A stretch of 64,000 bases of DNA, taken from assembly GCA_000091205.1 (NCBI GenBank), contig AP006496.2. One strand, written 5' to 3'. Origin of the DNA: Cyanidioschyzon merolae (taxonomy: Eukaryota). Positions 1-38,502 of this stretch are shown here, piece after piece. The notes beneath the pieces were generated by a model. The model did no database searches and was not told the DNA's origin. It saw only the letters and a program-made list of their open reading frames with translations. The position numbers and the translations under genes are program-made. How positions within the stretch are numbered: position 1 is the stretch's first letter; each line of letters opens with the position of its first letter.

Positions 1-192
1 GTCACAGAACCGAGTCGCCCGCGCTCGCAGCGTCTCTCGTGGTTCACCATCGCTCGTCGACTCTTATCGCACGGAGGGAAGAAACTCGAACTCGCCAGTT
101 TCTTGAATGCGCTGCTTTTCCTCGGCCTCTTGACCAACTTGCACCTGACATATGTGAATCGAGCGGGCTGTGCCCCGACCCTATTGGAGCAA

Positions 193-1212
193 ATGGCTCA
201 GTTCCACCCGGAAGCACGACACGATCCGGCTCTGCTCCTGCGCCGCTACGACCTCGTCCAAGTACAAGTAGTGCCGACGCCACTCCCGCTGCAACACTTT
301 CACAACACCTGGTCTGGCCTGCAGCCACTGTGGGAGCGGTTGTTGCCTCGTCCGCAACGGTACCAGTTCGCTACAGAAAAGGGATTTTTGCTACTAAGTG
401 AACAGGCCAGACGAAGCCACAACATCTCCGAGTTGCATCTGGAGCTGACGACGAAAGATACGTGCTATGGTGCGTCACCATTCATGCGCGGTATTCTCAA
501 GTACATTGTCGGTAGTGAAACCGTCGTTCTGAACGCTTTTGCGTATCTGCTGCAGTATGGCCTCCGACACGGCCACAGTAGTGGTCAGCGGTCGCTCGGC
601 ACGGATGGGTACGTGCTCAACGTGCAGAGCGGTGATATCTATAACATCGGTCGGGTATTTATCGGGGAACTATACGCGCGCTCCGCTTACTTTACCGATG
701 TCTTTCTGTTGAAAACGGGCGTGTTACTAACGTCAGCATATGTGATGTTCACCATAGGTGCACTGATCGCGTTTGCGTTACGGGAAGTGCAGTCAAGGAT
801 CATGAAGTTAGCACTGGAGATCCAGAATGCTCGGAATCGCACGCCATATGCCGGAGCGCTGTTTAGCAGTTCGATTCATGCGCTGGTGCTGGTTCCGATT
901 ATTACAGGTATCCTTTTCTTTCTTTTTGAATTCTTCGATAATCAGCTGCTTGCGTTTTGCGTGCTCGTTGTCGCATGGATTGCGGAGGTGACGGTCATGT
1001 TGGGCTGGCGGAGCGGCCTCTCGATCTACATCCTTCCGCGGGCGTTTGCAGCGTACTTGTTAGCATTTCATATTTACTTTTTCTCGTTTCCCCTGGGTTT
1101 TAGCTGGTTAGCGCTCTTCACCTGTGCCGCGTTCATGCAGCACACTGTTTTTCTGGTTTTCTCTCGGTTCGAGTCACCGCGGCTTCGCGCTGAGGCAACA
1201 ACGCAGCGATGA
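193..1212 (+). CDS. Hypothetical multi-pass membrane protein. It may be a downstream exon of a gene starting before the window.
   Basis: ORF 103..1212 begins with TTG in the track. The first in-frame ATG is at 193. 339 codons stop-free. Several hydrophobic helix-length segments (e.g. FTDVFLLKTGVLLTSAYVMFTIGALIAFAL; LVLVPIITGILFFLFEFF; LAFCVLVVAWIAEVTVMLGW). No recognisable family motif. Confidence 0.35.
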   Translation: MAQFHPEARHDPALLLRRYDLVQVQVVPTPLPLQHFHNTWSGLQPLWERLLPRPQRYQFATEKGFLLLSEQARRSHNISELHLELTTKDTCYGASPFMRGILKYIVGSETVVLNAFAYLLQYGLRHGHSSGQRSLGTDGYVLNVQSGDIYNIGRVFIGELYARSAYFTDVFLLKTGVLLTSAYVMFTIGALIAFALREVQSRIMKLALEIQNARNRTPYAGALFSSSIHALVLVPIITGILFFLFEFFDNQLLAFCVLVVAWIAEVTVMLGWRSGLSIYILPRAFAAYLLAFHIYFFSFPLGFSWLALFTCAAFMQHTVFLVFSRFESPRLRAEATTQR

Positions 1213-2887
1213 AGAGCGCCCGGGACTAGGACGCAGCGCACTGCATGCTTGGCGATGCGCGGGTACCATGTATAACGTGCTGCGCTCCTTGAAAAGTGTT
1301 TCTTGATTCGATGGTTTTGTTTGCAGCTTCATCGGTGCGAATGGCTGCTTGGTTGGCTTGCGACGGGTAATGCACAGCGCTTGCGTGGTGTCTCAGGCAG
1401 CTTTACGCTTGGACAACTTGCAAGCATGCCAGAAACGCCAGCACTTGTACCACTTTGGTGCATGCGAGACCACCGTGTGACGGTGCGATTTTGCATTTCG
1501 CGTGAGTACGTGCTATAGAGGGCGCGGCGGATGTCTGGCGCTGGACCAGGAACGGGCATTGCTGACGACTCCATCACGCTTTCTGGCGAGCGTATGCAAC
1601 AATCCTCCTTTCCGTGGTCAGGGTCGATGCCTATATGAGCAATTCGTATTGGTTGCATGGGTAGCGCGAGCGTTTCGTGCTACATGCGCTCGTCGTCCGC
1701 TGTGCAGCAGCAGGCAGACGCGTATCCTGGACAACAAATGCGCCGGCCAACCAGACGACGGGCAACGATTCGGTACGGTAAACGAAGCAACTTCAGTCAT
1801 ACCGAGTCCGGGTTGCTTGTGCGTGGGCAAAAGATGACTCTCGTTCCATTCGAGTTCAAACGAGCGTCGTGAATCGCCACTGCCGCAACATCGCTGATGA
1901 GTGAAGTACCCGCCGCGCCAGCGTCAGTCTCCGGGGAGGCGCACCAGATCGCGCCTCTTGCTCGGAGTTGGCTTTGGTGGATCTCCCGTGGGCGACAAGT
2001 CTGGAGAAATCGCCATCGATCCCGGTGTTGTTGTTATTGCTGTTGTTCTTGTCCCCGTTGCTGTCGTCGGAGGGGGTGCTTGCCGCACAGGCGCCGTACT
2101 GGCACCAGTGTGTGGCGTACGCGCACCGGCACGACGCTGGGCGTTCTCGGCGCCGTCCCGAGACGAACTTGGAGTCTCCTTCTTTCCAGGAGCGACGCCC
2201 TTCAACCTGAGCTCATAAGCCCGGACTTTGGCCGACACGTCACCGTCGCTTTCGTTCAAGTTCTGTCCATTATGTTTCTCGTGGAGTGCTGTGTAGTGAG
2301 CGATTTTCTCCCGAACCGTCCCGGACGAAGTATCGAGAGAATCATTGACGCTTTGTTCGATTGAAGAATTCGCACTCTTACTAACCGTCTCAAAAAACTC
2401 CTTCGCGGATCGTACGCTTAAGCTTGAGTTTAAAGTCTGTTGGGACATGGATAGAAGTTTTCAGAGTCTATTGTCAGGTGTGCAGGTTGCGGGAAAAACG
2501 AATTTGCTGCGATGCGTGTCTGCGGCCGCAGGCGACGTCACGGCGGGAAAAACGGCTGTTGTCGCTCACGTGCAATGACGATCATGATGATCATGATAAT
2601 GATGATGGCTATGCCGTCCAGCAAATTCATTGGCATTGCAGCCTTCGGTTTTGAAAGCTTCTACATTCCTTTACTTGTCTGGGCGAATTCCAAGCAAGCA
2701 TCTGCCTCAAACGGTACCATAAAGAGAAAGCATTTGGATACCTCGCTCTCTCTACGTGAGCTTTGGAGATTCAGCGGGGGCTATTGCATGTTTCCAGCAC
2801 GCAGCAGCTACGTCATTCGTGTAGCGACTCGGACGCGTCGTGATCGGCGGTTCTATAATTGTACGTACTTACGCCGGTGTACAAAAA

Positions 2888-3045
2888 CACATCTAGATGC
2901 ATCGATCACTCAACGCAATCCGCATTGCACTGCCACGGTGATCGTAGATATCAACGTAAGTGCGCCTGCATACAAGCACATCTAGATGCATCGATCACTC
3001 AACGCAATCCGCATTGCACTGCCACGATGATCGTAGGTAGAAACG
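2888..3045. repeat. Direct tandem duplication, ~90-bp unit x ~1.7
   Basis: Unit 'acatctagatgcatcgatcactcaacgcaatccgcattgcactgccacgRtgatcgtag...' occurs at 2888-2977 and again from 2978, with 2 mismatches in the first 60 nt. Confidence 0.6.
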
Positions 3046-4220
3046 TTGGCTCCAAAGCGAAATCCCCTCGTGCTACGATGTTTGTTGGAATAGGATCGAA
3101 CAGTTCAACGAAACGTTCCAGAATGCGTGGGCGCTTCCAGAGAGAAGGCTGTGGATCTCAGCGCTTCAAGCGGTGCGATCCCGTCGTGCGGTTTTGAAAA
3201 TGATGCTATTTCCGGCAGCAGCGACTGGATCGATTCAGACGCTTGCTTGGCATCAAGCCGGTCTCGAACGGTCGCTGCACCTTCACCACCAGCACATCCA
3301 GCGTCACTGGGGTCATGCTGCGCAGACAGCACTGCCCTACAGAGCCTTGACGAGTATCCGCTGACAGAACGGCGCCCTATCGAGCCAACGCATACCGCAA
3401 CGGATGATTCGGGAGAGGCGCTGGCTGATGCAGTATGGCGAGAAAGTAGCGTTTTGTCCAAATGTTCTGTACCATGCGCAGATCAGACGCTTCGGATGGA
3501 CGAATGTATCTGGTTCGTCAACGGACGATCAAACTCGAACGGCGACAGCACGACGTGATTTGCCGACAATTGCTGCATTTTTGAAATGAAAGCCGCTCGT
3601 CGGAGCGACGCTGCACCGTTCCATATCGTTATGCGGGAGCGTCTCGTCGGCAGTTGGGAGCTTGTTGTCGTCGGCATATGCCGCTGAGCGCAGGCACGAC
3701 GACCAAACTGCAAGTTCACGAAGCAGGGTGCGTCATGCCCGCCAACAGCGCCGTCAGGAGCCAAAAGCGTCGAGAAGCAGACGCTGCTTTCAGCTGCTCG
3801 CCGGAGATAGCGCTCACCTAGGCTCCACGTTCATGCAGCAGAACTCTCTTACAGCATGGGATACTGTACCGTTGCGACGGTAGCAATGCCAGTGAGTACG
3901 TTCGCGTTGCGTTTTCTGTGCTGAAACCAGGTGATTTGCACTGTTCGAAGCGCCCCGTCATCCCAGCATAGGCCAACTGGATGCTGGCACTGCAGATTTC
4001 TCCTGAACCGGGTCGACGGAACTTGGATGCAGCGCGCGGTCCACAAGCTGCAGCACGTTTACAGAAGAACAAGGCTCGCGTAGACAATCAACGAACGAGT
4101 GCGACCTGCTCACCCTGGGGTATGCTCGATACCGAGCATCGCATCAGCGTTTGTCCAGGGGTACCCCATACCGCCAGACACATCCGTATCGTGAACGCGA
4201 TGACAAAGTCGCGTATGACC

Positions 4221-7200
4221 TCAAATGGACTCGGCGACTTTGGACTTGTGAACGAGGTCAGCCAAGTTGTCGAGGAAGAGACTCGGCGTCAGGAGATGCG
4301 TACCGCCTATGTAGACGTCGAGGTTCGGCATCTGCCGTGCGAACGTAGCCGCTATCCGACACTCTGTGCGCGTAAGGCCGCCAATAAAAAAGATCATCAG
4401 CACATCCTGGGATGGTGCACTCGACTGGGTGCTCACGGGGCGTGCTTCCACCAACGCACTCGTCGACGAAGCAGCGCAGTTGCGGCATGCATCATGTTCG
4501 CTCGAAGCCGAACGAATCTCCATAGCGGACTGAGAGACATGGGCGCCTGTCGGGAGCAGCGCATCCTGCTCAAGGACGCTACCTATCGACTGTAATGGGC
4601 TCGGCTGTCCGCTGCGTACTGGAGGCGTCCTCATTTGCAGTCCAGACGGGAGATATTCTTGGTACCGTTGCGTTCTGGTGTGTGTGGTTGAGGGCGCCGC
4701 TGTCGTCGACATGAAGGCACGGGCTGCCGTCGACGTGCTCGTCGAGGTAGCGTCTGCTCCTGGACTCGAGTCGATCGAAGGCGACACTGGGTTTTCAGAT
4801 GTGTTTCCTGCGGCTGCACAGCGACCGAGAATCTCGAGCAACAGCGGTGCACCATCACGAGCTCGTCGCTGTCTTTTGATTGGTTCTGCACTGTGACGCT
4901 CTGCCCGCAGGCACTCGATAAAGGCACGAAGGCTGGCTCGACCGCGGTCGTCGATCTGGGCTTTGGCCATCCAGCGTACCAGCAGGTTCGCGTCTGCACC
5001 GCGGCACGCTACCCAGAGGAGGATAAGACGCAACTTGGCGGAGGGTTCAACGTTGGGCTGTTGGAGCAGGGCCTCAACTTGTTGCTGCTGCTCTGCGCGT
5101 CGTACTTTTTTGCCGCTCCGGGGATCCTTGCCTGTCACCAGAATCGCCTCGAGTTGTACGATACTCGCCATGTAGCGTGACTGGTACAAGGCGGTGCATT
5201 TTTCAAGCTGATCCAGGTGGAAGCTGAGTCGTTCGACCACTCGCTGATATTCGACTACAGACTTGTCACCGAGAGTCGCGTTGGCTGACCCCTCGTTTCG
5301 AGGTCTGGAGCGAGCACTGCCCAGCGCGAACTCGCGCTGACTCGACTGACTGGCGTGTCCAGTCTCTATGAGAAACCTGTCCAGTTCAACATGTGCACTC
5401 GATGCTGCCTCGTGGATATCGAGATAGCGCAAACGCAGCCACGTTGGATCGTCAGGCGTATTCAAAGTCAGCGGTATGCTCCCGATCGACGTTGTCTTGA
5501 ACAAACTACGCTGCGGCTTGACCACAATACTCGTTGGATGACTATCGACCGGAACCGGGAACATGTCGTGCAAGAAGGCATCGTACGCGAGATCATGTCG
5601 CAGTGGTGTCAGCGGGTCCGTCGCTCGATCAATGAGCACGAGACGGACGCTGCGGCGACGATACCGGCTGCGAGAAGTACCAGTACCTGCTGCTCGCAGC
5701 TCGTCTGACGGTGCTTCTGTACAAGCGCTTGGTACAGAAGCCGTAACGTAGACGGCTTCAGCGGTAGACCGGGACGTTTCCGCGTTCATAGCCGCACGAA
5801 GCGCGTCCGCAATACCCATGGCGACGCTGCTGGCAATATGGGTGGTATGGATCTCAATCTTTGGCAGCTCAAGCCCGAGGATTTGCAATACCGAGGCGAG
5901 CTGATCACCCAGTTGCTTGCATGCCCGCTTCCATTGGGTACTCGAGTCGCCTTGCTCCGGCCTGTTACCGGATGGTCCGGTGTTCCGACCGTAGAACGTT
6001 CCAAAAAGCTCCGGCAGCTCGAAAGAGAACGCGTAGTCATCGATTGGGACTAGGTCGGCATGGAGCTCCCTAACTTGCAAACTGGCGTGCATCCCGCCTA
6101 GACTTGTTCGGACTACATCGAGCAACGGACTCGTTATCGACCGGATAGCCAAGAGCAATACGTCGAAACGGCGTTGGTGTCGAGTCGACGTTGGTGTTGG
6201 CGTCGATGATGAGGCTCGCGGTGAGAGCCCTGTGCACACCTGTGCGACCTGTGCGAGCGAGGTATCGTCCCCAGTAACCAGGAAGATGGTGTTCGTTCGC
6301 GACGGCAGGTTCTTCAGCTGTGCCGCTTCTTCGAGGGACTCAACGCCAGTGATCCCGTGGTCAGCAAGATCCGATAAACGGCAGACAGCGGCGAGGATAT
6401 GTGTGCAACGTGCATCCAAAACGAGCGTTTCCCAGCAGCCGTGTCGCGGGCGGATACTCCCGAACGTGGCCCCAACGAAGCGCATACGCAGAGCCTCTCT
6501 CAGACTGGGAGTCGATCGTAGGGTCTGTGAGACGCCGGGCGTCTCTGGTGGACGCTTCGGACCAGTGCTACGCTGCGGTGGTATGGAGTGCTTGTCGGGG
6601 GCCGTGCCACCACCGCCACCGCCAACGGTGCCACAGGCACTGGAAAGCGCAGCGATGGACAGGGTTGTTCGCTTTTCGAGCTCTGTTTCTTCATCGTCTG
6701 CTCTCTGAAGCCTCCGTTTGGCATTGTTTCGCTGCCGCTGACGACGTCGGTAGACGTAGTAGAGCGCCCCGAGTACGGCTGCCAAACCAAGGACGACGCT
6801 GGCAACCACACCGCCGATGACACCAGCGTTGCTGCTGCTGCTAGAGGATGAAGATCCCTGCTGCTGCTGCTGCGAGGACGACGACGACGACGGTGCTGGT
6901 TCCGCTGTAGGAGCAACTTCTGCTACGTCTATCGTCCCGCTGGGGCAAGTCGCCAGTATGCCGGTATCGAACGTGAGTCTACCACCACACACATACGACT
7001 GCAAACGAGCGGATGCGAGCGCTGTACCGTTCGCGCTTGCGTACGGACTCGAGTCCGTAACGAGACTGTAGTAGGACGCGTAGACGGAGCCCGCTCGCAC
7101 GCCCACAAGCCACGTCGTTTGGAAGCCGAGGCGAGTATCTAATGCCGACCGAATCACAACATCTATAGCACCAGCGTAATCGCTCAGGTTCATCGCTGGG

Positions 7201-8108
7201 AAATAGAGAGTATAGGCGAGACGAATGCCGTGCGTCTCGTTCACCGGGGTGATCCATGCGGGTGACGGTTCCACTGAGGGCACAGGATTGATGCTCTGCG
7301 GAGATGCAGCCGGTGTTGCCGCTGAAACCTGCACGGTACCGTCTACGGTCCAGTTCTGGAAAAGCAGTGGGCTATCGCCGGAGGCAAACAATCCTATGGT
7401 TCCGGAGAGCATTGCGTCTGTAGCTGTATCCACAAGGGTGCCCCATGGACTCCAACCGTTCAGACTCGCCTGGAATCCGCGTCCAATGGCGGTAAGTGTT
7501 AGGATGAAGGAGTCGCTGGCGTTCAGGCTCGGAACACTGGTGGCATTCGATGTCGCGAGCGTACGCCCCTGAAAGCCGGGTCGTAGTCTTTCCAGAGTCA
7601 GTGTCTGATTCGGACCCGTCCAAAGCAGCAGATAAAAATCGCTCACATCCCGTGCACGTGCAACGATACCCACAGTACTACTGTTGGCCGAAGCGTTAAC
7701 AGCGGCTGTCACGGTGTAGTCGGTCCAGTGCGCTATAGCGGTGCTGTTAACAAACAGCGCAAGGGCACCTTCGAAATCTGTTGACTCCAGGATCGTCGTG
7801 TTCGATGTTGCGTTTCCACTGCCCGCAGGCCCAGGCTCGTATAGTAACGTTCCATCGCTGAGAAGCGACCAGCTCGTTTCAGCAGACGCAGACGAACCCT
7901 CGCTCAGCACAAGGTACGAGCGGAGGCTCTCGAACGGCAGACTGCATGGACACGCACTGAAATTGAACGAATCGAGAGAGAAAAGCTCTGATACTTGAAC
8001 CGCCTGGCGCTCTAGATCAAGAATCAGCGCTCCAGCCAACTCAACGGATACAAGTGCAAGCAACAAACAAAAGAGAATAGCTACCCAGCCACGACACCAG
8101 CGTCGCAT
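4221..8108 (-). CDS. Single continuous ORF. It has an N-terminal signal peptide, an N-glycosylation-rich ectodomain, a polyS/polyQ tract and a TM helix, fused to a complete C-terminal Sec1/Munc18 (SM) family domain.
   Basis: Track ORF 4221..8138 starts on TTG. The first ATG is at 8108 (MRRWCRGWVAILFCLLLALVSV = signal-peptide-like). More than 20 NxS/T sequons occur in the first ~400 aa. TM helix AGVIGGVVASVVLGLAAVLGALYYVYRRRQRQR. From M552 (nt 6485) downstream the SM-family hallmarks are present: 'RLVLIDRATDPLTPLRHDLAYDAFLHDM' (cf. Munc18 [23 protein letters not shown]) and C-terminal 'LMIFFIGGLTRTECRIAATF...VYIGGTHLLTPSLFLDNL' (cf. [20 protein letters not shown]...VLIGSTHILTPQKLLDTL). No in-frame stop separates the two modules. 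Confidence 0.6.
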   Translation of the reverse strand: MRRWCRGWVAILFCLLLALVSVELAGALILDLERQAVQVSELFSLDSFNFSACPCSLPFESLRSYLVLSEGSSASAETSWSLLSDGTLLYEPGPAGSGNATSNTTILESTDFEGALALFVNSTAIAHWTDYTVTAAVNASANSSTVGIVARARDVSDFYLLLWTGPNQTLTLERLRPGFQGRTLATSNATSVPSLNASDSFILTLTAIGRGFQASLNGWSPWGTLVDTATDAMLSGTIGLFASGDSPLLFQNWTVDGTVQVSAATPAASPQSINPVPSVEPSPAWITPVNETHGIRLAYTLYFPAMNLSDYAGAIDVVIRSALDTRLGFQTTWLVGVRAGSVYASYYSLVTDSSPYASANGTALASARLQSYVCGGRLTFDTGILATCPSGTIDVAEVAPTAEPAPSSSSSSQQQQQGSSSSSSSSNAGVIGGVVASVVLGLAAVLGALYYVYRRRQRQRNNAKRRLQRADDEETELEKRTTLSIAALSSACGTVGGGGGGTAPDKHSIPPQRSTGPKRPPETPGVSQTLRSTPSLREALRMRFVGATFGSIRPRHGCWETLVLDARCTHILAAVCRLSDLADHGITGVESLEEAAQLKNLPSRTNTIFLVTGDDTSLAQVAQVCTGLSPRASSSTPTPTSTRHQRRFDVLLLAIRSITSPLLDVVRTSLGGMHASLQVRELHADLVPIDDYAFSFELPELFGTFYGRNTGPSGNRPEQGDSSTQWKRACKQLGDQLASVLQILGLELPKIEIHTTHIASSVAMGIADALRAAMNAETSRSTAEAVYVTASVPSACTEAPSDELRAAGTGTSRSRYRRRSVRLVLIDRATDPLTPLRHDLAYDAFLHDMFPVPVDSHPTSIVVKPQRSLFKTTSIGSIPLTLNTPDDPTWLRLRYLDIHEAASSAHVELDRFLIETGHASQSSQREFALGSARSRPRNEGSANATLGDKSVVEYQRVVERLSFHLDQLEKCTALYQSRYMASIVQLEAILVTGKDPRSGKKVRRAEQQQQVEALLQQPNVEPSAKLRLILLWVACRGADANLLVRWMAKAQIDDRGRASLRAFIECLRAERHSAEPIKRQRRARDGAPLLLEILGRCAAAGNTSENPVSPSIDSSPGADATSTSTSTAARAFMSTTAAPSTTHTRTQRYQEYLPSGLQMRTPPVRSGQPSPLQSIGSVLEQDALLPTGAHVSQSAMEIRSASSEHDACRNCAASSTSALVEARPVSTQSSAPSQDVLMIFFIGGLTRTECRIAATFARQMPNLDVYIGGTHLLTPSLFLDNLADLVHKSKVAESI
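6829..6895. repeat. Coding triplet repeats (CTG)n/(GAC)n encoding a polyS/polyQ tract
   Basis: gctgctgctgctg...ctgctgctgctgctgcgaggacgacgacgacgacgac. Inside CDS 4221..8108 this gives SSSSSSQQQQQGSSSSSSSS. Confidence 0.7.
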
Positions 8109-8429
8109 AGGAGGCCAATGTGCATGAGTTGCCAACAAGCCTCGTGTTGGTTGCCTCCTATGTGAGCGTTACCGCTGTCGCTCTCGTCACCAGGGTAACG
8201 AATGAGCCAGAAGGACGACACTTGGCATATGCGACTTGCGTCCACGCTAAACACCGTTACCTGAGCGACGACGCATCCAAAGCAACGGTGCTTTCCCCGA
8301 GGGATAGGTACGCTTTGCTCAGCAGCAGCGCGTAACGGACGCGTTCTAGGGGCGCGCGGCACAACGATCCGCATCGGGGCCATTTTCGCTCTGGAGGGCG
8401 CACCCCAGGCTCGACGTCGATTCTGTTCC

Positions 8430-9340
8430 ACCTCTCCTAGTACCTCAGTGGTGTGTAGCAAGCGAACAAAGTCACTATGGAATGTACCCTGTAGATCGTA
8501 GAAGAATTGCCTGGAGGATATATTCTTTACTGAAAAGTTCAAGGAAGACTGCATCTCTCCTTCAGGTTAGTCATACCACGGTACTTAGATGGTTGAGGAA
8601 CGCTGAAAGGAAGAAGTACAAGCGCTCTGCACCTAAAACCGATATTCTCAAAGCGCGCTTGCGGGAAATGGTAGAAAACGACCCCTCGTTTACGTTACGG
8701 AAAGCAAAAGCGACGATAGAGGCCGCCACGGGCATCTCTGTTTCTCAACAGCTTGTTCGTGTGGTCCTGAAATCACTGGGATACCGTCGCAGAAAAGTCC
8801 AGCTTCACGCACGACCAACATCCACTGAAATCGCAACGACAGCGTTCATGGAGAGTCGCTATCGATATGAAGCCGAGTGACGCTGGTGTGTTTTTTCTGT
8901 CGATGAGACTTGCTTCGGGTGAAACGGGCGGTGCGTATATGGGTATTCGCGGAGCAGGGCGCTCATTGTACGTCTGTTGAAGCTCGAAGAGAGCGATGAT
9001 ATCCTCATCGGATTTATCTGGAGTGGGCCCGGGTGGCAGAATCACGTTCGCTCCTAGAGAAGGCGCACACAACAGCACCGACCTGGTCGATTCACTGGTG
9101 ACCTCTCCCTGACGTCTGGCGACGTGCTTCCAATGGACAATGTTGCATGTTACCATTCCCTTTGCGTTAGGGCTTTTGCCGATGATATCGGGGTCGAGTT
9201 GCTTTTCATTACTCCGTACGGTGCGTGATTCAACCTCAGCAAGGGAGTGTTTTTTATCATGCAACGTAATGATTGCTGCACTGGAGGAATCGCAGAAGCG
9301 TTCTGCACACAGCGACAAACCGGGAGCACAGGTCAGCTTT
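8430..9340 (+). mobile_element. Decayed Tc1/mariner (IS630-superfamily, DDE_3) transposon relic
   Basis: ORF 8482..8880 encodes a transposase-type N-terminal HTH (RRRIAWRIYSLLKSSRKTASLLQVSHTTVLRWL...). Downstream, in shifted frames, lie remnants of the DDE core: 'VFFSVDETCFG' (first D), 'MDNVACYHS' (second D) and 'GVELLFITPYGA*FNLSK' (degenerate LPPYSPDLNPIE block, stop in place of the catalytic region). Total length ~0.9 kb is shorter than an autonomous element. A second ~80% identical copy starts at 63690. Confidence 0.6.
8482..9330 (+). pseudogene. Tc1/mariner-like transposase pseudogene (frameshifted, internally deleted)
   Basis: HTH N-terminus is intact. The DDE_3 core is broken by frameshifts and a stop. 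Confidence 0.55.
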
Positions 9341-10022: not shown

Positions 10023-11693
10023 ATGAGCGAACACTATCGAAACAGTCTGCGTTGGTGCATAGGACTACACCGAAGTTTGTTGTCGTGGCCGCAGAAACGG
10101 CCAGGTTGCCAACGCACTGGGTTGCGGTCTCCAGTGACCGGGACGCACAAAGCACCGGTTACTGCTCACTGGAAAACGCGGGATCATGAACGTGCCGTAA
10201 AGCATACTGCGTCTTTGTGGGCCGGCGGACAAAAACGGTTTCCCTGGCGCGGAGACTTTGACGTCTTGGCTCCATGCGTGCCGCTACTTCGTTTTCCCAG
10301 TTCGAAACGACAGCTTGTAGCGAGTAGACACGACGAGGCTGGAAGCGAGCACGCCCCTGCGGACCAGCACAAGTGCGAGCACATCGCCACCGTATCGTTG
10401 GAAGGAGCGCTTGCAAAAGACCCTGTCTCCACGGGCGTCTATGCCGCAGTGCAGGACCCGGAGCGCTCCACCAGCACAGAGCATACGCAGCGTGCTCCCG
10501 CGTCACCGAGCGGCACGTCGCGGAAACGACCACGGAATATGACACCATATCGACCGGTGCGCTCAGAAGTGGACTACCGAGCACTCGTCGACGACGAGCT
10601 ACCCCGTATCGTCAAGGGGCTCGGTCTTGGGCCGACGGCAGTGCTCGCGCTGGATCCGCAACATCCTGGACCGACTGAACAAGCCAAAAATGCATACCTT
10701 TCGTGGCTAACCGCTGGGTATCACGGCAGTATGGAGTACATGGCCCGGACGGATCGCATACGGCGGGCTTTGAACTACGAACAAATCCTGCCTGGTGTTC
10801 GAGCGATCGTTGTAACGACACTGTTCTACTGGCCGGGCAAGTCGGGGTTCACCGCACCCGCAGACGCCGCAACACCGAACCGAGGCACCGTCTCCTGCTA
10901 CGCGTGGGGTCAGGACTACCACCGCACGCTGGGGCAAAAGCTGAAGCAGCTCGCAGAGGAGATTCATGCATACGCAGGAGGTCAGGGGCGCTACTACGTG
11001 GACACCGGTGCTTTGCTGGAACGACATATCGGCGAAAGTGCTGGCCTGGGTTTTGTGGGAAAAAATAGTCTGCTCATTCATCCGCAGCTCGGAAGTGGCT
11101 TCTTTCTTGGGGAGGTCCTAACGACGCTGCCGCTTCCGAGCAAACGGCCGGATCTCTCTGGACGCGGTGGCTGCGGACGTTGTCGAAAATGTCGGACGGC
11201 TTGTCCAACTGGAGCGATTGTCGAAGACCGAGTTGTCGATGCTCGACGATGCATCTCTTACTTGACGATTGAACTGAAAGATGCGATTCCGGAAGAATAC
11301 CGCGAAGCGATCGGCTCCCTCATCTACGGCTGCGATATCTGCCAACAGGTATGTCCCTGGAATCAATTCGACTGGGAGGGATCACCTACGAGCCCGCTTT
11401 TCGGTGAGGTACCCCAGGATGTCCGCGAACCGGATCTCTTGGCGTTACTGGACCTGAACGAGGTTTCTTTTCAAGAACGATTCAGGGATTCACCGATACG
11501 GCGGATCGGCCTTGAGCGCCTCCAGCGGAACGTGCTTGTAGCGCTGGGTAATGTGGGGAATCCGCACCAGTCAAGAGCTCGTCTCGTTCGATTTCTTGAG
11601 GAGAATGAAAGCGAATTACTGCGAGAACATGCCCGTTGGGCGCTTGATCGCATTGAACGGCGAGAAAAAGCTGCTGCGCCTTTTGCAGGTTGA
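10023..11693 (+). CDS. queG: Epoxyqueuosine reductase QueG (bacterial type) with a ~172-aa N-terminal extension. The conserved domain starts at M173 (nt 10539).
   Basis: ATG at 10023 was verified, and an internal ATG at 10539. Near-collinear match to proteobacterial QueG: 'CGRCRKCRTACPTGAIVEDRVVDARRCISYLTIELKDAIPEEYREAIGSLIYGCDICQQVCPWN' (two 4Fe-4S CxxCxxCxxxCP motifs), 'FFLGEVLTTLPLP', 'CYAWGQDYHRTLGQKLKQL', 'GYHGSMEYMAR', and C-terminal 'SPIRRIGLERLQRNVLVALGN'. Confidence 0.85.
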   Translation: MSEHYRNSLRWCIGLHRSLLSWPQKRPGCQRTGLRSPVTGTHKAPVTAHWKTRDHERAVKHTASLWAGGQKRFPWRGDFDVLAPCVPLLRFPSSKRQLVASRHDEAGSEHAPADQHKCEHIATVSLEGALAKDPVSTGVYAAVQDPERSTSTEHTQRAPASPSGTSRKRPRNMTPYRPVRSEVDYRALVDDELPRIVKGLGLGPTAVLALDPQHPGPTEQAKNAYLSWLTAGYHGSMEYMARTDRIRRALNYEQILPGVRAIVVTTLFYWPGKSGFTAPADAATPNRGTVSCYAWGQDYHRTLGQKLKQLAEEIHAYAGGQGRYYVDTGALLERHIGESAGLGFVGKNSLLIHPQLGSGFFLGEVLTTLPLPSKRPDLSGRGGCGRCRKCRTACPTGAIVEDRVVDARRCISYLTIELKDAIPEEYREAIGSLIYGCDICQQVCPWNQFDWEGSPTSPLFGEVPQDVREPDLLALLDLNEVSFQERFRDSPIRRIGLERLQRNVLVALGNVGNPHQSRARLVRFLEENESELLREHARWALDRIERREKAAAPFAG

Positions 11694-13036: not shown

Positions 13037-16000
13037 TCAAGCGTTTGCCTTGTGATCGTCCAAGCTCTGTGCACAGATCGCATGAAATTTTTTCAGAAAA
13101 CGCTCGAAATTTTCAGTTACAACATAGACACCATCATGCCTTGATACACGAACGTACGGCGGCGGATTTGTCAGAACGTACGGAAGACTATTCTGTGGAG
13201 TGCCCAGATTAAGGATTCGATTCGGAAACGGTAGACGACGCTGTCCGCAACTCCAGAACGTTAACCATGAAAAGCATGTCCGTTGTCGACGCTGTCCCGG
13301 GGTTGCACCGTCCACGCCCGTATCCAGCTCCGTCAACGGTTCCAGGATACGCTCCATGAATTCTTCGGAATCGATGTCCAGTCGCCGTGCAAGATCGCTG
13401 ACCAAGTCGAGTATGGACTCGTAGGGTTTCATGGAGCCTTCATCCTTATGATCGTTGGAACTAAAGCGACTGAGCAACATCTGATGGAGATCAGCGACGC
13501 TCACCCGCACATTATGGTGGAAACCGCGGTACAGTCCGTAAGGCAGCGCACCCGCTCTTATCACGATTTCGAGTAATTCGACGTAACGAATGTCGTGGAT
13601 TTCCGCTGGTACATTGGCCAGATGCAAATGCGCTCGACTAATCCGGATTCGTCGTCCGCGATGATCAAAGCGACTCACCGGCATGCCGAACAAGGACTTG
13701 GTGAGCAGTACCACACCCGGTAACGCGTGTTCCCGCGTCAAGAGCGCAGTCGCAAAGATGGAGGTTGCTGTAAGTTCCCCGCTAGCAAAGCGATTCCGAT
13801 ACCGAAAACCCTCGTCACCACCGACGTGTGCCTCGAAGACGCGAAGGGCAACGGTGCTGGGTACCGAAGACGGGGTTGCGTGGTTTCGGTACGCCCCGTG
13901 CTCGCGTGGAGTGTGCAGATCATCGTTTGGAGGCATCGTGGGTAGCACGTCAATGGGATGGTACACCTGCAAATGCCGAATCGGACGACGCTCGAACGGA
14001 TTCCCCAGACGCAAGTAGACTCGTCGGGGTGCGGCTGCTGGCACCATCTCTAGCGCCTGATGCCGAGACAATTCCGAGGTCACATATACATCGCACTGAT
14101 AGTGGCGCAGTAGCAGATCCAAGTTCACCATGGAAAACACTTCCAGGCCAGAGAGGGTTGTTTCTGGCTCCACGAAACCCTGAGCGGTGTCGTTGCTCAC
14201 GAGTACAATGGCATGCGCATGGGCAGCTTGCACCCGCGCAAGGTCCGATATGCGGAGCACTGAACCCGCCACATGTCTGAGCGGACCATACTTGGCTGCT
14301 ATCTCAGCAAAGTGGGACTCATTGGAAAGCGACGGGACCAGAACGAGCACTTCAAAGTTCGCTACTTTCCAGCCGTTCGGTGCCGAGAACCCCGGCTCCT
14401 GCGATGGCGCACTCGAGTCTGCGTTGACACGAACGTAACTCACGGACGACCGCAGTGCCTTGGTAAAAAGCTCCAAAAAGACCGTGCTTAGCGTTGAGCT
14501 GCAAGTCGCGAGAATAACCGTGGCCTCTTTCGGTGCCTCGTCTTCATCAACGTCATCATCAGAGTTTCGAAGTTGATCACCTGCGTCCTGCTCGCTGCCG
14601 GGCTCCGATGACTCGGACGCAGACCTTCTCGCGAAATCTGCCAAAGGGCGGCTTTCCGCAGTGGCATCCAGACTCGTCCGCTTGACGACACCAGCAGTGG
14701 CAGCTCGGGTGTCATGAGCGCGCTCGGTCGACAGCACAGACGGAAACGCAGACGCTGACACGGCCTCTTGGCGCTTTTGCGAGTCGTTGGATACCGCCGT
14801 GTTCCTGCGGCTGCGTGCTCTGCGTTGCTGGAGACGAAGCTTCTCCGCCGATGCAGCGGTATTGAGACGGCCTCGCCCGGTACCCAGCTCCACTTCGGGC
14901 AACGCAACCTCGACCAGGCCGAAACGAGTCCACCCGCTGGAGCGTGACTGCTTGCTCAACCGCGTGTTGTTGCTCGATGTGTCAGCGTCGTCCCGATCGA
15001 GGCTTTTGCGTAGCTCCCAGAGATCATCGACGGCTCTGGTGCTGTAGAGCCAGGAGATCACAGGACGAAACTGATGCCGAGCACACAGAATAAAAAGCAA
15101 CCCTCGGGTTCCTATTTTGTGCCGGGGATTGTACAGCACACGCCATGCTCCAGCCGAATCGAGTATCAGCAGCCCCGCCACCGCCACTTCAAAGCGCAGG
15201 TACAGCTCAAGTGCCAGTTCGCCGAGACGCACCCCAGCTAGCCGCTCTGGCAACGAGATTCGCCGTAACTTGTGCCGAACACCAGTCTTGTACTCAAGAA
15301 TAGACAACGAGTCGCCGAAACATAACGGTCGATCGATACGGGGATCAGCTAGCATATTCCGGACAAGCGTGGACGCCCCATTACAATGCACATTGGCTGC
15401 CAACAAGTACGCTGCAAACTCCAGCTGACAGAGCGTCCGAGTTTCGTACTCCAAGAGTCCCGCCTGTACTGCATCTTCCGTATCCCGCGGATGCTCATCA
15501 GCATCTATCAGACACTGAGTCTGGATGAAGAGATCTTCCAGCTGGCGAACTGCATAAGGCGTCTGGAAGAGGATATGCAGCGGGAGTCGCGGGTAGTGCA
15601 TGCGAACTGTGCGCGCACGAAGCACCAGCGCAGCATCGTCAGCGATACGGTGCGTTTCGGTATAGGAGTCACGCGGCTCAACGCCCGAAAATAACAGGCA
15701 CATTTCAGCGTGACCGAGGTCCACGCGACGGCGGTCATAAGCCTCATAGACATTGCCTACGAGCAAACGAACGCGATCCGTGGCTTCAGTGTGCTGGAGC
15801 ACGTGTGTTTGGGGCTCGCTCAGGTAGAGATCATCAAGGAAGATGATAAAGTACGCCAGAGCATTGCGTTGTTCCGCATAGAAGACAGAGAGTGCTGCCT
15901 CCAATTGCGGGAGAGAAGGACGACCAGTCACCACAATGTGTCGCCGGTAACCACCAGCCCGGAAGGAGCCCTTACCCTCCTGACTCATCTTGTAAATATT

Positions 16001-17416
16001 CACAATATTCGCAATGGCGTACGCAAAGTAGGCAACCATAATTACGATCACAATGGTGACGTAGATGCGAGCGACGACATTGGTGGCCACATAGTCACCG
16101 TAACCTACGGTCGTTACCGTCACGATCGTGAAGTATATGGAGGATGTTGGGGTGAAATGGTTCGATCCGCTCGCGTACTCGATGTCAAACATGAGCATAG
16201 CGATGCTGAAGACAATGGCAAAGAGGTGAATGCTCAGAGAGACGACATAACGCCCGACACGGCCGATGTACATGTGATCCTCGCGCAACATGTCCCGATT
16301 GTATATATAGAAAAAGGCTTGCACTGCCGTGATTGAACGAAGAAAATTGAAGTTCACAAAAGAAACGTTCCCAGCGGCGGATCGCAGAGCCGATGGTATC
16401 GATAAACTCTCTGCAATCGCACTCAGGGTGAAGACGTGATTTCGATAGTACGGACCCCGGTGCGGCAGCAGAAAGACTCGAAATGCGTAATCCACGGCGA
16501 ACCATAGACCTACAGGCCAATAGTAAACACGTCCAATGTAATCACGACGAAGCTCGCCCTCAACATAGAAGATCACACAAGTAGCCAGATCGATCAGGAG
16601 TCGAATCCAGCTTAACGCCAAAGTCACACGAGAGCGTTCCATGGTCATCTCGAGGCGCTCGACGAGCAGCGAATATCGCAACGAGTCCTCAGTGACTATC
16701 GGTAGACGATCGCTTACAGGAGGAATCATTCGAGACCACCAGGGTGTCATGACTTTCATACTGAGATGCAAAGCTCGGGCTCGATTCACCCAGTTTTGAG
16801 CGTCGTTGGCGTCAGCGACACGCTCTGCGACAACACCCGAAGCGCCAACATGGCGTACTACGGGACCGTCCGGGATTGCAGTGCTTTCAACGCTTTCTAG
16901 GTCTGGTTCATGCAGCGACGCGGTCGCAACTCGTCCAGCGTCCAGCTGGGCTAACGACGAGTCTACTGGAAAGTCCGGCTTTTGCGAAGCCGCCTCCAAA
17001 ACGCCACGACTCAGCTGCAGCGGGCTCGACGCGCGGTTCGTTTTGCCAGTCTCGCGCTGCAGCAGACGCTCAAGGACATCAGGTTGTTCGAACACGGCAT
17101 CGGTGTCCGCTGCAGACCCGCTGAATTGCCCCTCGTCCGCGTCTTCATATGGTTTGAGCCACGCGAACACGCTCCGATCCGTCAAGGCTGGCGGTAAAAG
17201 ATGCCTGTTGAGCCGCGAGCGTAACCATAGTGCCGCCAGACGCCCGCGGGCCCGACGTCTAGCCAACAGGCGGAGGCGGCGAAGCGCACGAAAAAGGAGC
17301 AGCAGAAGAAAAGGCTTGAGAGCGACTACACAGAAGATAATAGAGCCCCAAACAAGGGAAAAGAGCAAACCTTTTACGTCGCTCAACCGTACACTATCTT
17401 GATCAGAAGAAGACAT
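13037..17416 (-). CDS. Large (1459 aa) potassium channel: 6TM-like core with K+ selectivity filter and tandem RCK-type domains (Slo/BK-like)
   Basis: ATG at 17416 verified. Pore/selectivity filter 'FTIVTVTTVGYGDY' followed by an S6-like helix. 'RRHIVVTGRPS' Rossmann-like RCK start directly after S6. A second RCK-like segment near the C-terminus (AIVLVSNDTAQG...). Long low-complexity linkers. Confidence 0.75.
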   Translation of the reverse strand: MSSSDQDSVRLSDVKGLLFSLVWGSIIFCVVALKPFLLLLLFRALRRLRLLARRRARGRLAALWLRSRLNRHLLPPALTDRSVFAWLKPYEDADEGQFSGSAADTDAVFEQPDVLERLLQRETGKTNRASSPLQLSRGVLEAASQKPDFPVDSSLAQLDAGRVATASLHEPDLESVESTAIPDGPVVRHVGASGVVAERVADANDAQNWVNRARALHLSMKVMTPWWSRMIPPVSDRLPIVTEDSLRYSLLVERLEMTMERSRVTLALSWIRLLIDLATCVIFYVEGELRRDYIGRVYYWPVGLWFAVDYAFRVFLLPHRGPYYRNHVFTLSAIAESLSIPSALRSAAGNVSFVNFNFLRSITAVQAFFYIYNRDMLREDHMYIGRVGRYVVSLSIHLFAIVFSIAMLMFDIEYASGSNHFTPTSSIYFTIVTVTTVGYGDYVATNVVARIYVTIVIVIMVAYFAYAIANIVNIYKMSQEGKGSFRAGGYRRHIVVTGRPSLPQLEAALSVFYAEQRNALAYFIIFLDDLYLSEPQTHVLQHTEATDRVRLLVGNVYEAYDRRRVDLGHAEMCLLFSGVEPRDSYTETHRIADDAALVLRARTVRMHYPRLPLHILFQTPYAVRQLEDLFIQTQCLIDADEHPRDTEDAVQAGLLEYETRTLCQLEFAAYLLAANVHCNGASTLVRNMLADPRIDRPLCFGDSLSILEYKTGVRHKLRRISLPERLAGVRLGELALELYLRFEVAVAGLLILDSAGAWRVLYNPRHKIGTRGLLFILCARHQFRPVISWLYSTRAVDDLWELRKSLDRDDADTSSNNTRLSKQSRSSGWTRFGLVEVALPEVELGTGRGRLNTAASAEKLRLQQRRARSRRNTAVSNDSQKRQEAVSASAFPSVLSTERAHDTRAATAGVVKRTSLDATAESRPLADFARRSASESSEPGSEQDAGDQLRNSDDDVDEDEAPKEATVILATCSSTLSTVFLELFTKALRSSVSYVRVNADSSAPSQEPGFSAPNGWKVANFEVLVLVPSLSNESHFAEIAAKYGPLRHVAGSVLRISDLARVQAAHAHAIVLVSNDTAQGFVEPETTLSGLEVFSMVNLDLLLRHYQCDVYVTSELSRHQALEMVPAAAPRRVYLRLGNPFERRPIRHLQVYHPIDVLPTMPPNDDLHTPREHGAYRNHATPSSVPSTVALRVFEAHVGGDEGFRYRNRFASGELTATSIFATALLTREHALPGVVLLTKSLFGMPVSRFDHRGRRIRISRAHLHLANVPAEIHDIRYVELLEIVIRAGALPYGLYRGFHHNVRVSVADLHQMLLSRFSSNDHKDEGSMKPYESILDLVSDLARRLDIDSEEFMERILEPLTELDTGVDGATPGQRRQRTCFSWLTFWSCGQRRLPFPNRILNLGTPQNSLPYVLTNPPPYVRVSRHDGVYVVTENFERFLKKFHAICAQSLDDHKANA

Positions 17417-31889: not shown

Positions 31890-31954
31890 GAAAGACGTTT
31901 GTTTCCAGGGGTGGCTCCTAGTATATTGCTTCGCGCTGCCGCAGGCACTAGTCC

Positions 31955-38420: not shown

Positions 38421-38502
38421 TTGAAAGGCGGTGGTGGTGTGGTGTGTGTACGTCCTTTCTGAACCGCCAATTTTTCGATAAAAGCCCGAACTGCGTGAGA
38501 TT

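What the first reader, a model, noticed from the sequence alone, without database searches (positions are those of the whole stretch)
10023..11693. Bacterial-type QueG (epoxyqueuosine reductase) in a eukaryotic nuclear context, with a 172-aa in-frame N-terminal extension, next to a transposon relic
The C-terminal 385 aa are very close to proteobacterial QueG: both ferredoxin-type 4Fe-4S motifs, 'ISYLTIEL', the HEAT-like tail and 'IRRIGLERLQRNVLVALGN'. Eukaryotes normally salvage queuine and lack oQ reduction. The gene has acquired a long R/S-rich, stop-free N-terminal extension starting at a true ATG, typical of organellar presequences in eukaryotes. It lies ~0.7 kb from a Tc1/mariner relic. 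It is a candidate horizontally acquired gene that has been domesticated.
Basis: partly seen in the sequence, partly recalled or inferred. Interest (0 to 1): 0.55.

Follow-up and report, generated by a model that had tools for sequence, protein, structure and literature searches.

The report
Red-algal nuclear QueG with organellar leader

Summary
The ORF is real and sits exactly where stated: 10023-11693 (+), 556 aa. It is identical to C. merolae 10D XP_005537250.1, which is annotated "similar to iron-sulfur cluster-binding protein". The C-terminal 384 aa are a full QueG: TIGR00276 scores 332 bits against a cutoff of 200, all eight cluster cysteines and the His/Asp/Arg catalytic triad are present, and the predicted fold matches solved QueG structures.

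It is neither contamination nor a recent transfer. Codon usage is native. Independent metagenome contigs span both junctions. The QueG-BK channel adjacency is kept in Cyanidiococcus. Orthologues occur across red algae and in prasinophyte green algae, in a clade that contains no named bacterium. The domain's dN/dS is 0.06-0.12. A 2025 paper (PMC12301720) already describes this algal QueG, with bacterial-like TGT and QueA, as a predicted mitochondrial pathway.

The 172-aa extension is probably translated. The R-P-R-N codons just upstream of the conserved Met173 differ only synonymously across three genera. It looks like a basic, amphipathic presequence followed by a disordered linker. Which organelle it targets is unresolved.

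One side point: C. merolae is listed as lacking B12-dependent metabolism, and QueG was not considered in that survey.

The parts
10023..11693 (+). Complete CDS of the nuclear QueG gene (556 aa, stop codon included). Identical to C. merolae 10D XP_005537250.1 / BAM81214.1.
10023..10538 (+). N-terminal extension, aa 1-172. A basic N-terminus (aa 1-40: 7 K+R, 1 D+E) is followed by a long segment predicted to be disordered. Its sequence is not conserved between genera, but an extension is present in all three cyanidialean genera.
10026..10076 (+). Predicted amphipathic helix, aa 2-18 (muH 0.50). Candidate targeting element.
   Evidence: low pLDDT, about 50
10521..10541 (+). Conserved junction R-K-R-P-R-N-M (aa 167-173). 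The R-P-R-N codons differ only at synonymous positions among C. merolae, Cyanidiococcus and Cyanidium. Met173 is conserved and has A at -3.
10671..11651 (+). Match to TIGR00276, the QueG equivalog (aa 217-543).
10776..11006 (+). QueG_DUF1730, part of the cobalamin-binding domain (aa 252-328). Contains His300 and Asp327, which correspond to B. subtilis His106 and Asp134. Arg334 (= Arg141) lies just downstream at 11022-11024.
11172..11363 (+). Fer4_16 double [4Fe-4S] ferredoxin domain (aa 384-447). All eight ligand cysteines are present: C384, C387, C390, C394, C410, C437, C440, C444.
11511..11687 (+). C-terminal HEAT-like helical (tRNA-binding) domain, aa 497-555.
8482..8880 (+). A neighbour, not part of the gene: ORF with a Tc3/IS630-type transposase HTH at the Pfam threshold. 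A stop-interrupted continuation runs to about 9330.

Best explanation
[quoted passage not shown] Shown: the protein has the full QueG architecture, namely a cobalamin-binding domain, two [4Fe-4S] clusters and a HEAT-like tRNA-binding tail, with all catalytic and cluster residues. It is under strong purifying selection. It belongs to an algal (red plus prasinophyte) clade whose nearest named bacterial relatives are Myxococcota- and Chloroflexota-type QueGs. Inferred: translation starts at ATG 10023. The basic, amphipathic N-terminus directs the precursor into an organelle. The mitochondrion is favoured because published predictions place Chloropicon and Galdieria QueG, QueA and bacterial-like TGT there, but the plastid is not excluded. 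The disordered region of roughly 150 aa acts as a linker, possibly removed near the conserved RPRN|M junction. Inside the organelle the enzyme uses electrons passed through the two clusters to cob(I)alamin to reduce epoxyqueuosine-34 to queuosine-34 on organelle-encoded tRNAs for Asp, Asn, His and Tyr. This is the last step after a bacterial-like TGT inserts preQ1 and QueA makes oQ. Activity should depend on a supply of cobalamin.
For: Identity and function: TIGR00276 scores 332 bits against a cutoff of 200; Pfam finds DUF1730 and Fer4_16. Sequence search against solved structures gives QueG 5D6S at E 1e-49 and 5D08 at E 2e-46. In that alignment, B. subtilis His106, Asp134 and Arg141 and the 8-Cys motif described in PMC5175355 map to H300, D327, R334 and C384...C444. 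H300, D327 and all eight cysteines are invariant, and R334 nearly so (at least 90%), in 62 homologues. The AF2 model has pLDDT above 90 across the domain, and Foldseek's top hits are QueG structures (E 1e-25, TM 0.75-0.81). Selection: dN/dS is 0.063 against Cyanidiococcus and 0.12 against Cyanidium. Native and vertical: GC3 is 0.57 against 0.56-0.63 for neighbours, and the codon score is 0.146 against 0.167 +/- 0.047. It is identical to the annotated 10D protein. Six independent metagenome contigs at 99.4-99.6% identity carry the gene; four span its junction with the BK channel and one spans both junctions, from Sec1 to the BK channel. The QueG-BK adjacency is kept in Cyanidiococcus. Red and green algal orthologues are the best hits. 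The tree gives a 70-member clade with no named bacterium inside; it groups with a Myxococcota-containing clade at 81% bootstrap, and the cyanidialean trio has 98%. Sampled unnamed members are eukaryotic. Extension translated: the R-P-R-N codons upstream of Met173 change only synonymously in three genera. ATG-initiated open extensions of 172, 148 and 55 aa occur in all three. No frameshift appears in any strain. Confident structure begins at about aa 165-171, before Met173. The second half of the extension has a gene-like codon score of 0.085. Presequence-like character: K+R 7 and D+E 1 in the first 40 aa, with the same pattern in Cyanidiococcus, Cyanidium and Galdieria. Pathway context: PMC12301720 and PMC2376095.
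Against: The eukaryotic clade as a whole has only 19% NJ bootstrap support. No cyanobacterial QueG was available for the tree. The first half of the extension has a non-coding-like codon score of -0.065, and the whole extension scores 0.010, below every in-frame window of neighbouring genes (minimum 0.061). The extension is unalignable between genera (pN 0.58). All three strain-level substitutions within it are non-synonymous. About 4% of 'non-genic' codon positions in this window lie in equally long stop-free runs, so openness alone is weak evidence. The 419-aa Cyanidiococcus model in NCBI and the 391-aa gene call on an ENA metagenome contig identified as Cyanidium by clustering both start at the conserved internal Met. 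No targeting predictor could be run. The presence of QueA and bacterial-type TGT in C. merolae itself was not tested. C. merolae is reported to lack other B12-dependent metabolism (PMC11439496), which leaves the source of the cofactor unexplained.
Confidence: 0.75

Rival explanations
1. Recent, lineage-specific horizontal transfer from a (proteo)bacterium into C. merolae, then domesticated by gaining a presequence, perhaps with help from the neighbouring transposon.
For: The family is ultimately bacterial, and most eukaryotes lack it (literature summarised). A transposase-HTH relic lies about 0.7-1.1 kb upstream.
Against: Orthologues occur across Rhodophyta and in prasinophytes. They form a eukaryote-only clade. 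The QueG-BK adjacency is shared with Cyanidiococcus, whose locus showed no transposase call among its predicted genes. Codon usage is native. Identity to proteobacteria is only 37-44%.
Confidence: 0.03
2. Bacterial contamination or a chimeric assembly.
For: None found beyond the bacterial affinity of the family.
Against: A 19.9-kb JGI contig (L008) spans Sec1-QueG-BK channel at 99.4% identity, and four further contigs from other samples span the QueG-BK junction. GC and codon usage match the flanks. The same neighbours occur in another genus.
Confidence: 0.01
3. The extension is not translated, or not always. The real start, or an alternative start, is the conserved Met173, which would give a 384-aa QueG without a presequence. 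In the dual-start version, the M1 isoform goes to an organelle and the M173 isoform stays elsewhere, as with several yeast tRNA-modification enzymes.
For: Met173 is conserved in three genera and has A at -3, whereas ATG1 has C at -3. Alternative gene models start at that Met. The extension has weak codon bias, with a first-half score of -0.065, and no sequence conservation. It is predicted to be disordered.
Against: Purifying selection is visible on the RPRN codons upstream of Met173. Confident fold starts before Met173. Three out-of-frame ATGs lie between the two starts, which makes leaky scanning unlikely. An open, ATG-initiated extension is present in all three genera and in every strain without frameshifts. 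Other algal homologues also carry N-terminal leaders. A cytosolic QueG would have no known substrate.
Confidence: 0.15
4. The gene descends from an organelle ancestor by endosymbiotic gene transfer, either cyanobacterial (plastid) or alpha-proteobacterial (mitochondrion), rather than from an ancient transfer from another bacterial group.
For: The product is probably organellar. The distribution, red plus early-branching green algae, fits an origin at or before the root of Archaeplastida.
Against: Alpha-proteobacterial QueGs are only 37-39% identical and fall far away in the tree. The nearest named bacteria are Myxococcota, Chloroflexota and Gemmatimonadota. No cyanobacterium appears among the named top hits. 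However, no cyanobacterial sequence was included, so the plastid version is untested rather than refuted.
Confidence: 0.1

Closest known systems
Algal organellar QueG described in Chloropicon primus and C. roscoffensis, with red-algal (Galdieria) orthologues (Genome Biol Evol 2025, PMC12301720)
   Same: A nuclear gene with bacterial-type QueG domains and an N-terminal leader. It falls in the same phylogenetic cluster (Chloropicon P0016 and Galdieria P0006/P0007). The proposed role is the last step of a bacterial-type Q pathway inside an organelle.
   Different: The C. merolae leader is much longer (172 aa) and mostly disordered. Its targeting has not been predicted or tested. Co-occurrence with QueA, BL-TGT and YhhQ was not checked here. 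The organism lives in acidic hot springs and is reported to lack other B12 enzymes.
Bacterial QueG (E. coli QueG/YjeS; B. subtilis PDB 5D08/5T8Y; S. thermophilus PDB 5D6S)
   Same: Domain order, eight cluster cysteines, the His/Asp/Arg active-site residues, the HEAT-like tRNA-binding tail and the fold.
   Different: Sequence identity is 26-30% over the structural alignment to the solved Firmicute enzymes and 41% to E. coli. The gene is nuclear, and it carries a 172-aa N-terminal extension that bacteria lack.
QueH (DUF208), the non-orthologous epoxyqueuosine reductase
   Same: Same reaction, oQ to Q (per PMC6063277).
   Different: An unrelated fold and cofactor set that is not cobalamin-dependent (my own knowledge of Zallot et al. 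2017). The window protein shows no resemblance to it.
Reductive dehalogenases (PceA, NpRdhA), class III cobalamin enzymes
   Same: They share the cobalamin-binding core and the two [4Fe-4S] clusters. TIGR02486 scores 44 bits, and Foldseek gives E about 1e-5 to 1e-6.
   Different: The score is far below that family's cutoff (160 bits). Dehalogenases have no HEAT tRNA-binding domain. The QueG-specific motifs and the equivalog score assign this protein to QueG.

Membership tests
QueG (tRNA epoxyqueuosine(34) reductase, TIGR00276) | Equivalog HMM score above the curated cutoff | tested here: met
   332 bits against a cutoff of 200, E 3.6e-99, covering profile positions 20-336 of 337.
QueG (tRNA epoxyqueuosine(34) reductase, TIGR00276) | Eight cysteines that ligate two [4Fe-4S] clusters (CX2CX2CX3C...C...CX2CX3C) | tested here: met
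   C384, C387, C390, C394, C410, C437, C440 and C444, with the same spacing as B. subtilis Cys188-Cys247.
QueG (tRNA epoxyqueuosine(34) reductase, TIGR00276) | Catalytic and cobalamin-face residues (B. subtilis His106, Asp134, Arg141) | tested here: met
   These map to H300, D327 and R334 in the phmmer alignment to 5D08. H300 and D327 are invariant and R334 nearly invariant among homologues.
QueG (tRNA epoxyqueuosine(34) reductase, TIGR00276) | Three-domain fold: cobalamin domain, ferredoxin domain and HEAT-like tRNA-binding domain | tested here: met
   The AF2 model has pLDDT above 90 across aa 171-556. Foldseek against 5T8Y and 5D6S gives TM 0.80-0.81 normalised to the target.
QueG (tRNA epoxyqueuosine(34) reductase, TIGR00276) | Binds cobalamin and reduces oQ-tRNA to Q-tRNA | not testable with these tools
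   This needs biochemistry or tRNA nucleoside mass spectrometry.
Algal organellar bacterial-type Q pathway (BL-TGT + QueA + QueG, PMC12301720) | Groups with red and green algal QueGs rather than inside a bacterial group | tested here: met
   The NJ tree gives a 70-sequence clade with no named bacterium, but clade support is only 19%. The clade plus its Myxococcota-like sister has 81%. Sampled members lie in eukaryotic contexts.
Algal organellar bacterial-type Q pathway (BL-TGT + QueA + QueG, PMC12301720) | N-terminal organellar targeting sequence | tested here: inconclusive
   The N-terminus is basic, amphipathic and poor in acidic residues, and the extension is probably translated. No targeting predictor or localisation data were available, so mitochondrion versus plastid is unresolved.
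Algal organellar bacterial-type Q pathway (BL-TGT + QueA + QueG, PMC12301720) | Co-occurrence with QueA and a bacterial-like TGT in the same genome | not tested
   The tools do not allow a search of the C. merolae genome or proteome. The literature reports a chlamydia-type TGT in red algae and all three enzymes in Galdieria.
Recent horizontally transferred gene | Restricted to one lineage, nested in a donor clade, with atypical composition | tested here: not met
   The distribution across algae is broad, codon usage is native, and the QueG-BK adjacency is kept in a sister genus.
Tc1/mariner (IS630-Tc1) transposon relic (the neighbour) | Transposase HTH plus DDE catalytic domain plus terminal inverted repeats | tested here: inconclusive
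   The HTH_Tnp_Tc3_2 match is at threshold (31.6 and 28.5 bits against a cutoff of 31.5). The DDE part gives no Pfam hit at E <= 1. No TIRs were found.

The most novel reading that the evidence does not exclude
QueG may be the only cobalamin-dependent enzyme in C. merolae, and an overlooked one in Galdieria and Porphyridium. A 2024 survey lists these algae as lacking METH-type B12 metabolism; for C. merolae no known B12-dependent enzyme was found at all, and that survey did not consider QueG (PMC11439496). If so, these supposedly B12-independent algae must import cobalamin into an organelle to finish queuosine. Their organellar tRNAs would then carry oQ instead of Q in B12-free axenic culture, which would make organellar decoding sensitive to environmental B12. 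A bolder extension is also open: because axenic cultures in mineral medium have no source of preQ1 or queuine, the strong purifying selection on QueG could mean that the alga makes preQ1 itself. That would be de novo queuosine synthesis in a eukaryote.
Probability: 0.3. Interest if true: 0.55.

Novelty: new member of a known kind. Interest (0 to 1): 0.3.

Why it matters
The textbook statement that eukaryotes only salvage queuine has a documented exception in some algae, and C. merolae is a genetically tractable member of that group. Its QueG could be used to test three things: where the bacterial-type Q pathway operates (mitochondrion or plastid), whether organellar tRNAs carry Q or oQ, and whether an alga classed as B12-independent in fact uses cobalamin. 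For genome annotation, the product name "similar to iron-sulfur cluster-binding protein" can be replaced by [quoted passage not shown]. As evidence of horizontal gene transfer it is not remarkable: the transfer is ancient and has already been noted.

Tried and rejected
1. Strain-level dN/dS. Six metagenome contigs at 99.4-99.6% identity gave only 3 substitutions in the extension and 4 in the domain, too few to decide whether the extension is coding.

2. Aligning the extension between genera. It is essentially unalignable (pN 0.58), so only the junction codons were informative.

3. Stop-free length as evidence. A mononucleotide model gives P of about 3.5e-4, but 4.2% of 'non-genic' codon positions in this window lie in runs at least as long. 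I did not rely on this.

4. Searching for QueA, TGT or preQ1 genes in C. merolae. The protein tools return only the best 120-150 hits to a query, so a bacterial query cannot reach algal sequences. Literature searches for Cyanidioschyzon or Galdieria with queuosine or QueA terms found only PMC12301720, and its supplementary trees are images. PMC2394758 does not mention TGT.

5. A cyanobacterial QueG for the tree. None could be obtained. The GTDB scan and the plasmid tblastn listing showed no cyanobacterium, though 11 plasmid records were not shown. PMC6063277 gave no usable distribution.

6. The DDE part of the putative transposon. No Pfam hit at E <= 1 and no TIRs.

7. Contamination, chimera and recent HGT were considered and rejected (see rival explanations).

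8. Neofunctionalisation as a dehalogenase was rejected: TIGR02486 scores 44 bits against a cutoff of 160.
Full report
WHAT IS THERE

The ORF at 10023-11693 (+) is exactly as described: it starts at ATG and encodes 556 aa. Pfam finds QueG_DUF1730 (aa 252-328) and Fer4_16 (aa 384-447), with a weak HEAT_2 tail. NCBIfam's QueG equivalog TIGR00276 scores 332 bits against a cutoff of 200 and covers aa 217-543. The reductive dehalogenase model scores only 44 bits against a cutoff of 160. The flanking genes are eukaryotic: a Sec1-family protein at 4221-8138 (-) and a BK/Slo-type potassium channel at 13037-17416 (-). Further along the window are Membralin, trehalase, an ABC transporter, a UPF1-like helicase and a CREG-like protein.

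WHERE IT COMES FROM

An exact-sequence look-up shows that the ORF is identical to XP_005537250.1 / BAM81214.1, "similar to iron-sulfur cluster-binding protein", of Cyanidioschyzon merolae strain 10D, on an 852,727-bp record. The window is therefore C. merolae nuclear DNA. That explains the intron-free long ORFs and the GC content of about 55%.

IS IT FOREIGN, CHIMERIC OR CONTAMINANT?

No, on four counts.
- Composition. GC at the three codon positions (0.66/0.50/0.57) falls within the range of nine neighbouring genes. A codon-usage log-likelihood trained on those neighbours gives 0.146 for the QueG domain, against 0.167 +/- 0.047 for in-frame windows of the neighbours.
- Junctions. Six independently assembled contigs from hot-spring metagenomes and SRA runs carry the same locus at 99.4-99.6% nucleotide identity. 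A 19.9-kb contig spans Sec1-QueG-BK channel, four others span QueG-BK, and one (L007) covers the upstream region and QueG.
- Synteny. In Cyanidiococcus yangmingshanensis, QueG lies next to the same BK channel gene, with Sec1 and Membralin upstream in a rearranged order.
- Selection. Nei-Gojobori dN/dS for the 384-codon domain is 0.063 against Cyanidiococcus and 0.12 against Cyanidium. dS is saturated, so these are rough values, but pN 0.15-0.28 against pS 0.73 is unambiguous.

PHYLOGENETIC POSITION

Against 5.8 billion proteins, the best hits after C. merolae strains are as follows:
- Cyanidiococcus (76%), a Cyanidium-like sequence (60%; identified through its cluster) and Galdieria (50-52%).
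- Rhodosorus, Porphyridium, Timspurckia, Pyropia, Chondrus and Hildenbrandia.
- The green algae Pyramimonas and Chloropicon (52-53%).
- Only then Myxococcota and Chloroflexota, at about 50%.

A scan of GTDB species genomes returned Chloroflexota (Anaerolineae, Promineifilaceae), Gemmatimonadota, Myxococcota and Acidobacteriota at 37-50% identity, with no cyanobacterium or alpha-proteobacterium. E. coli is 41% identical, Aeromonas 44%, and Sinorhizobium, Sphingomonas and Methylobacterium 37-39%.

I built a neighbour-joining tree with 149 sequences, 301 columns, Kimura distances and 200 bootstraps.
- All 14 named eukaryotic sequences and 56 unnamed ones fall in one clade that contains no named bacterium. 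Support for this clade is weak (19%).
- That clade plus a Myxococcota-containing clade has 81% support. Chloroflexota come next.
- Proteobacteria, Bacteroidota and Bacillota are distant.
- The cyanidialean trio has 98% support, and C. merolae plus Cyanidiococcus has 100%.

Three unnamed clade members sit on contigs of 82-844 kb. Their neighbours include Mediator Med13, PRONE, MBD, adaptin, LSM, TMEM128 and protein kinase genes, so they are eukaryotic.

The caveats are that the method is NJ only, that support for eukaryote monophyly is low, and that no cyanobacterial sequences were available.

WHAT IS ALREADY KNOWN

PMC12301720 (Genome Biol Evol 2025) reports bacterial-like TGT, QueA and QueG in Chloropicon, plus YhhQ in three of the five isolates. 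It predicts all of them to be mitochondrial. [quoted passage not shown] PMC2376095 had earlier described a chlamydia-derived, putatively mitochondrial queuine tRNA-ribosyltransferase in red algae, prasinophytes and chromalveolates. I found no paper that discusses the C. merolae gene. JGI's pipeline already labels the metagenomic copies "epoxyqueuosine reductase".

THE ENZYME ITSELF

Sequence search against solved structures gives QueG from S. thermophilus (5D6S, E 1e-49) and B. subtilis (5D08, E 2e-46).

PMC5175355 names the functional residues of the B. subtilis enzyme: Asp134 as the proton donor, His106 as a proton relay, Arg141 shielding the lower face of cobalamin, and Cys188/191/194/198/214/240/243/247 as the cluster ligands. 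The PDB chain index is offset by 28 from that numbering. In the phmmer alignment these residues correspond to H300, D327, R334 and C384/387/390/394/410/437/440/444. H300, D327 and all eight cysteines are invariant, and R334 nearly so (at least 90%), in 62 homologues.

An AlphaFold2 model built from the 62-sequence alignment has pLDDT above 90 across aa 171-556. Its best Foldseek matches in the PDB are the QueG structures (E about 1e-25, TM 0.75-0.81 normalised to the target), and the dehalogenases score far lower. By sequence and fold, this is a catalytically competent, cobalamin-dependent QueG.

THE 172-AA EXTENSION

Evidence that it is translated:
- Just upstream of the conserved Met173, the residues R-P-R-N are identical in all three genera but are encoded by different synonymous codons: CGA CCA CGG AAT in C. 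merolae, CGC CCT CGA AAC in Cyanidiococcus, and CGG CCG CGG AAC in Cyanidium. This is the signature of selection on the protein.
- All three genera have an ATG-initiated open frame upstream, of 172, 148 and 55 codons. In C. merolae there is no other in-frame ATG.
- No strain or isolate shows a frameshift.
- Confident structure starts at about aa 165-171.
- The second half of the extension has a gene-like codon score of 0.085.

Evidence against:
- The first half scores -0.065, and the whole extension scores 0.010, below every in-frame window of neighbouring genes (minimum 0.061).
- The sequence is unconserved between genera (pN 0.58).
- All three strain-level substitutions are non-synonymous.
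- Equally long open runs are not rare in this GC-rich genome: 4.2% of non-genic codon positions lie in one.
- Other gene models or gene calls start at the internal Met.
- ATG1 has C at -3, whereas Met173 has A at -3. However, three out-of-frame ATGs lie between them, which argues against leaky scanning.

Taken together, I put translation from ATG 10023 at about 0.7.

Its character fits a targeting sequence. The first 40 residues hold 7 K+R and 1 D+E. AF2 predicts a helix at aa 2-18, and the hydrophobic moment is 0.50. The rest is predicted to be disordered, with pLDDT of about 31. Leaders in Cyanidiococcus (MAFSRCRTTSSTLFRSLWRRL...), Cyanidium, Galdieria, Porphyridium and Chloropicon are likewise basic and poor in acidic residues. 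This fits an organellar presequence followed by a fast-evolving linker.

Which organelle is not settled. The published predictions for orthologues favour mitochondria. The aromatic residue at positions 3-5 (Y5, F3, Y5 in the three genera) is also reminiscent of red-algal plastid transit peptides; that comparison rests on my own knowledge and was not tested. The conserved R at -2 before Met173 would fit a processing site. That is inference only.

MECHANISM (INFERRED FROM THE FAMILY)

The precursor is imported into the organelle. The holo-enzyme carries two [4Fe-4S] clusters and base-off cobalamin. It reduces the epoxide of oQ34 to the cyclopentene of Q34 on organelle-encoded GUN-anticodon tRNAs, after TGT and QueA have acted.

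I could not test whether C. merolae has QueA, a bacterial-type TGT, YhhQ or the preQ1 biosynthesis genes. The strong purifying selection on QueG implies that its substrate exists.

A POINT WORTH FOLLOW-UP

PMC11439496 lists C. merolae 10D, together with Galdieria and Porphyridium, among algae that lack identifiable B12-associated metabolism. That judgement rests on METH/MTRR; the table notes that Galdieria encodes MCM and CblA and that Porphyridium encodes CblB. The survey did not consider QueG. All three algae have QueG. In C. merolae, QueG would be the only known cobalamin enzyme.

In bacteria grown without B12, oQ accumulates (my own knowledge: Frey et al. 1988). The same would be expected here in vitamin-free mineral medium.

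THE TRANSPOSON RELIC

ORF 8482-8880 (+) matches the Tc3-type transposase HTH right at Pfam's threshold (31.6 bits against a cutoff of 31.5). The same frame continues, with three in-frame stops, through motifs that look like a DDE transposase (..VDET....MDN..H....PY...N..) to about 9330. No Pfam DDE model matches at E <= 1, and no terminal inverted repeats were found. The HTH ORF is also present in a metagenomic strain.

Nothing links the relic to the origin of QueG. The gene is present in Cyanidiococcus, whose locus showed no transposase call among its predicted genes. The relic may relate to the local Sec1/Membralin rearrangement.

VERDICT

The gene is a new, unremarked member of a kind described in 2025. 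Interest is modest, and rests mainly on the overlooked B12 dependence and on C. merolae being a tractable system for testing an organellar bacterial-type queuosine pathway.

Noticed in passing
window 29663-31894 and 36199-38427: A 2.2-kb direct duplication at 98.4% identity. It is strongly G-rich on the + strand (GC skew +0.13 to +0.20). Each copy holds a 75-nt x 2.7 tandem repeat (30729-30931 and 37262-37464). The ORFs inside have no Pfam match.
   Followed up: partly
window 4221-8138 (-): The Sec1-family ORF is 1305 aa, but the Sec1 domain covers only aa 571-1290. The N-terminal 560 aa or so contain many NxS/T sites, poly-Ser/Gln runs and a transmembrane-like segment (GVIGGVVASVVLGLAAVLGALYYVY). 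That is unusual for a Sec1/Munc18 protein. The Cyanidiococcus orthologue is similarly long, at 1253 aa.
   Followed up: no
window 103-8138 versus L001 407-7498: Gene order and orientation differ between the two genera. C. merolae has Membralin(+) - Sec1(-) - HTH relic - QueG(+) - BK(-). Cyanidiococcus has Sec1(+) - Membralin(-) - a 306-aa gene - QueG(+) - BK(-). This is a local rearrangement next to the putative transposon relic.
   Followed up: partly
window 13037-17416 (-); L001 11951-16276: A 1459-aa BK/Slo-like K+ channel (Ion_trans, Slo-like RCK and BK_channel_a domains) in a red alga. The Cyanidiococcus annotation splits it into two gene models of 871 and 484 aa, which probably needs correcting.
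   Followed up: no
window 10023-11693; literature: A 2024 survey of algal B12 metabolism (PMC11439496, Table 1) lists C. merolae, Galdieria and Porphyridium as lacking B12-dependent methionine synthesis (METH/MTRR), and C. merolae as lacking any known B12-dependent enzyme. All three encode the cobalamin-dependent QueG, which the survey did not consider.
   Followed up: partly
window 10285 (codon 88) and 10762 (codon 247): The 10D reference differs from all six environmental contigs at codon 88 (Leu versus Pro). At codon 247 it has Arg where five of the six have Gln. These are either 10D-private substitutions or reference errors.
   Followed up: no
window 63505-63618: A 19-nt x 5.9 tandem repeat (CGAGCAGGCGATGCAGCGG) just beyond the 5' end of the CREG-like gene (62092-63399, - strand).
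   Followed up: no
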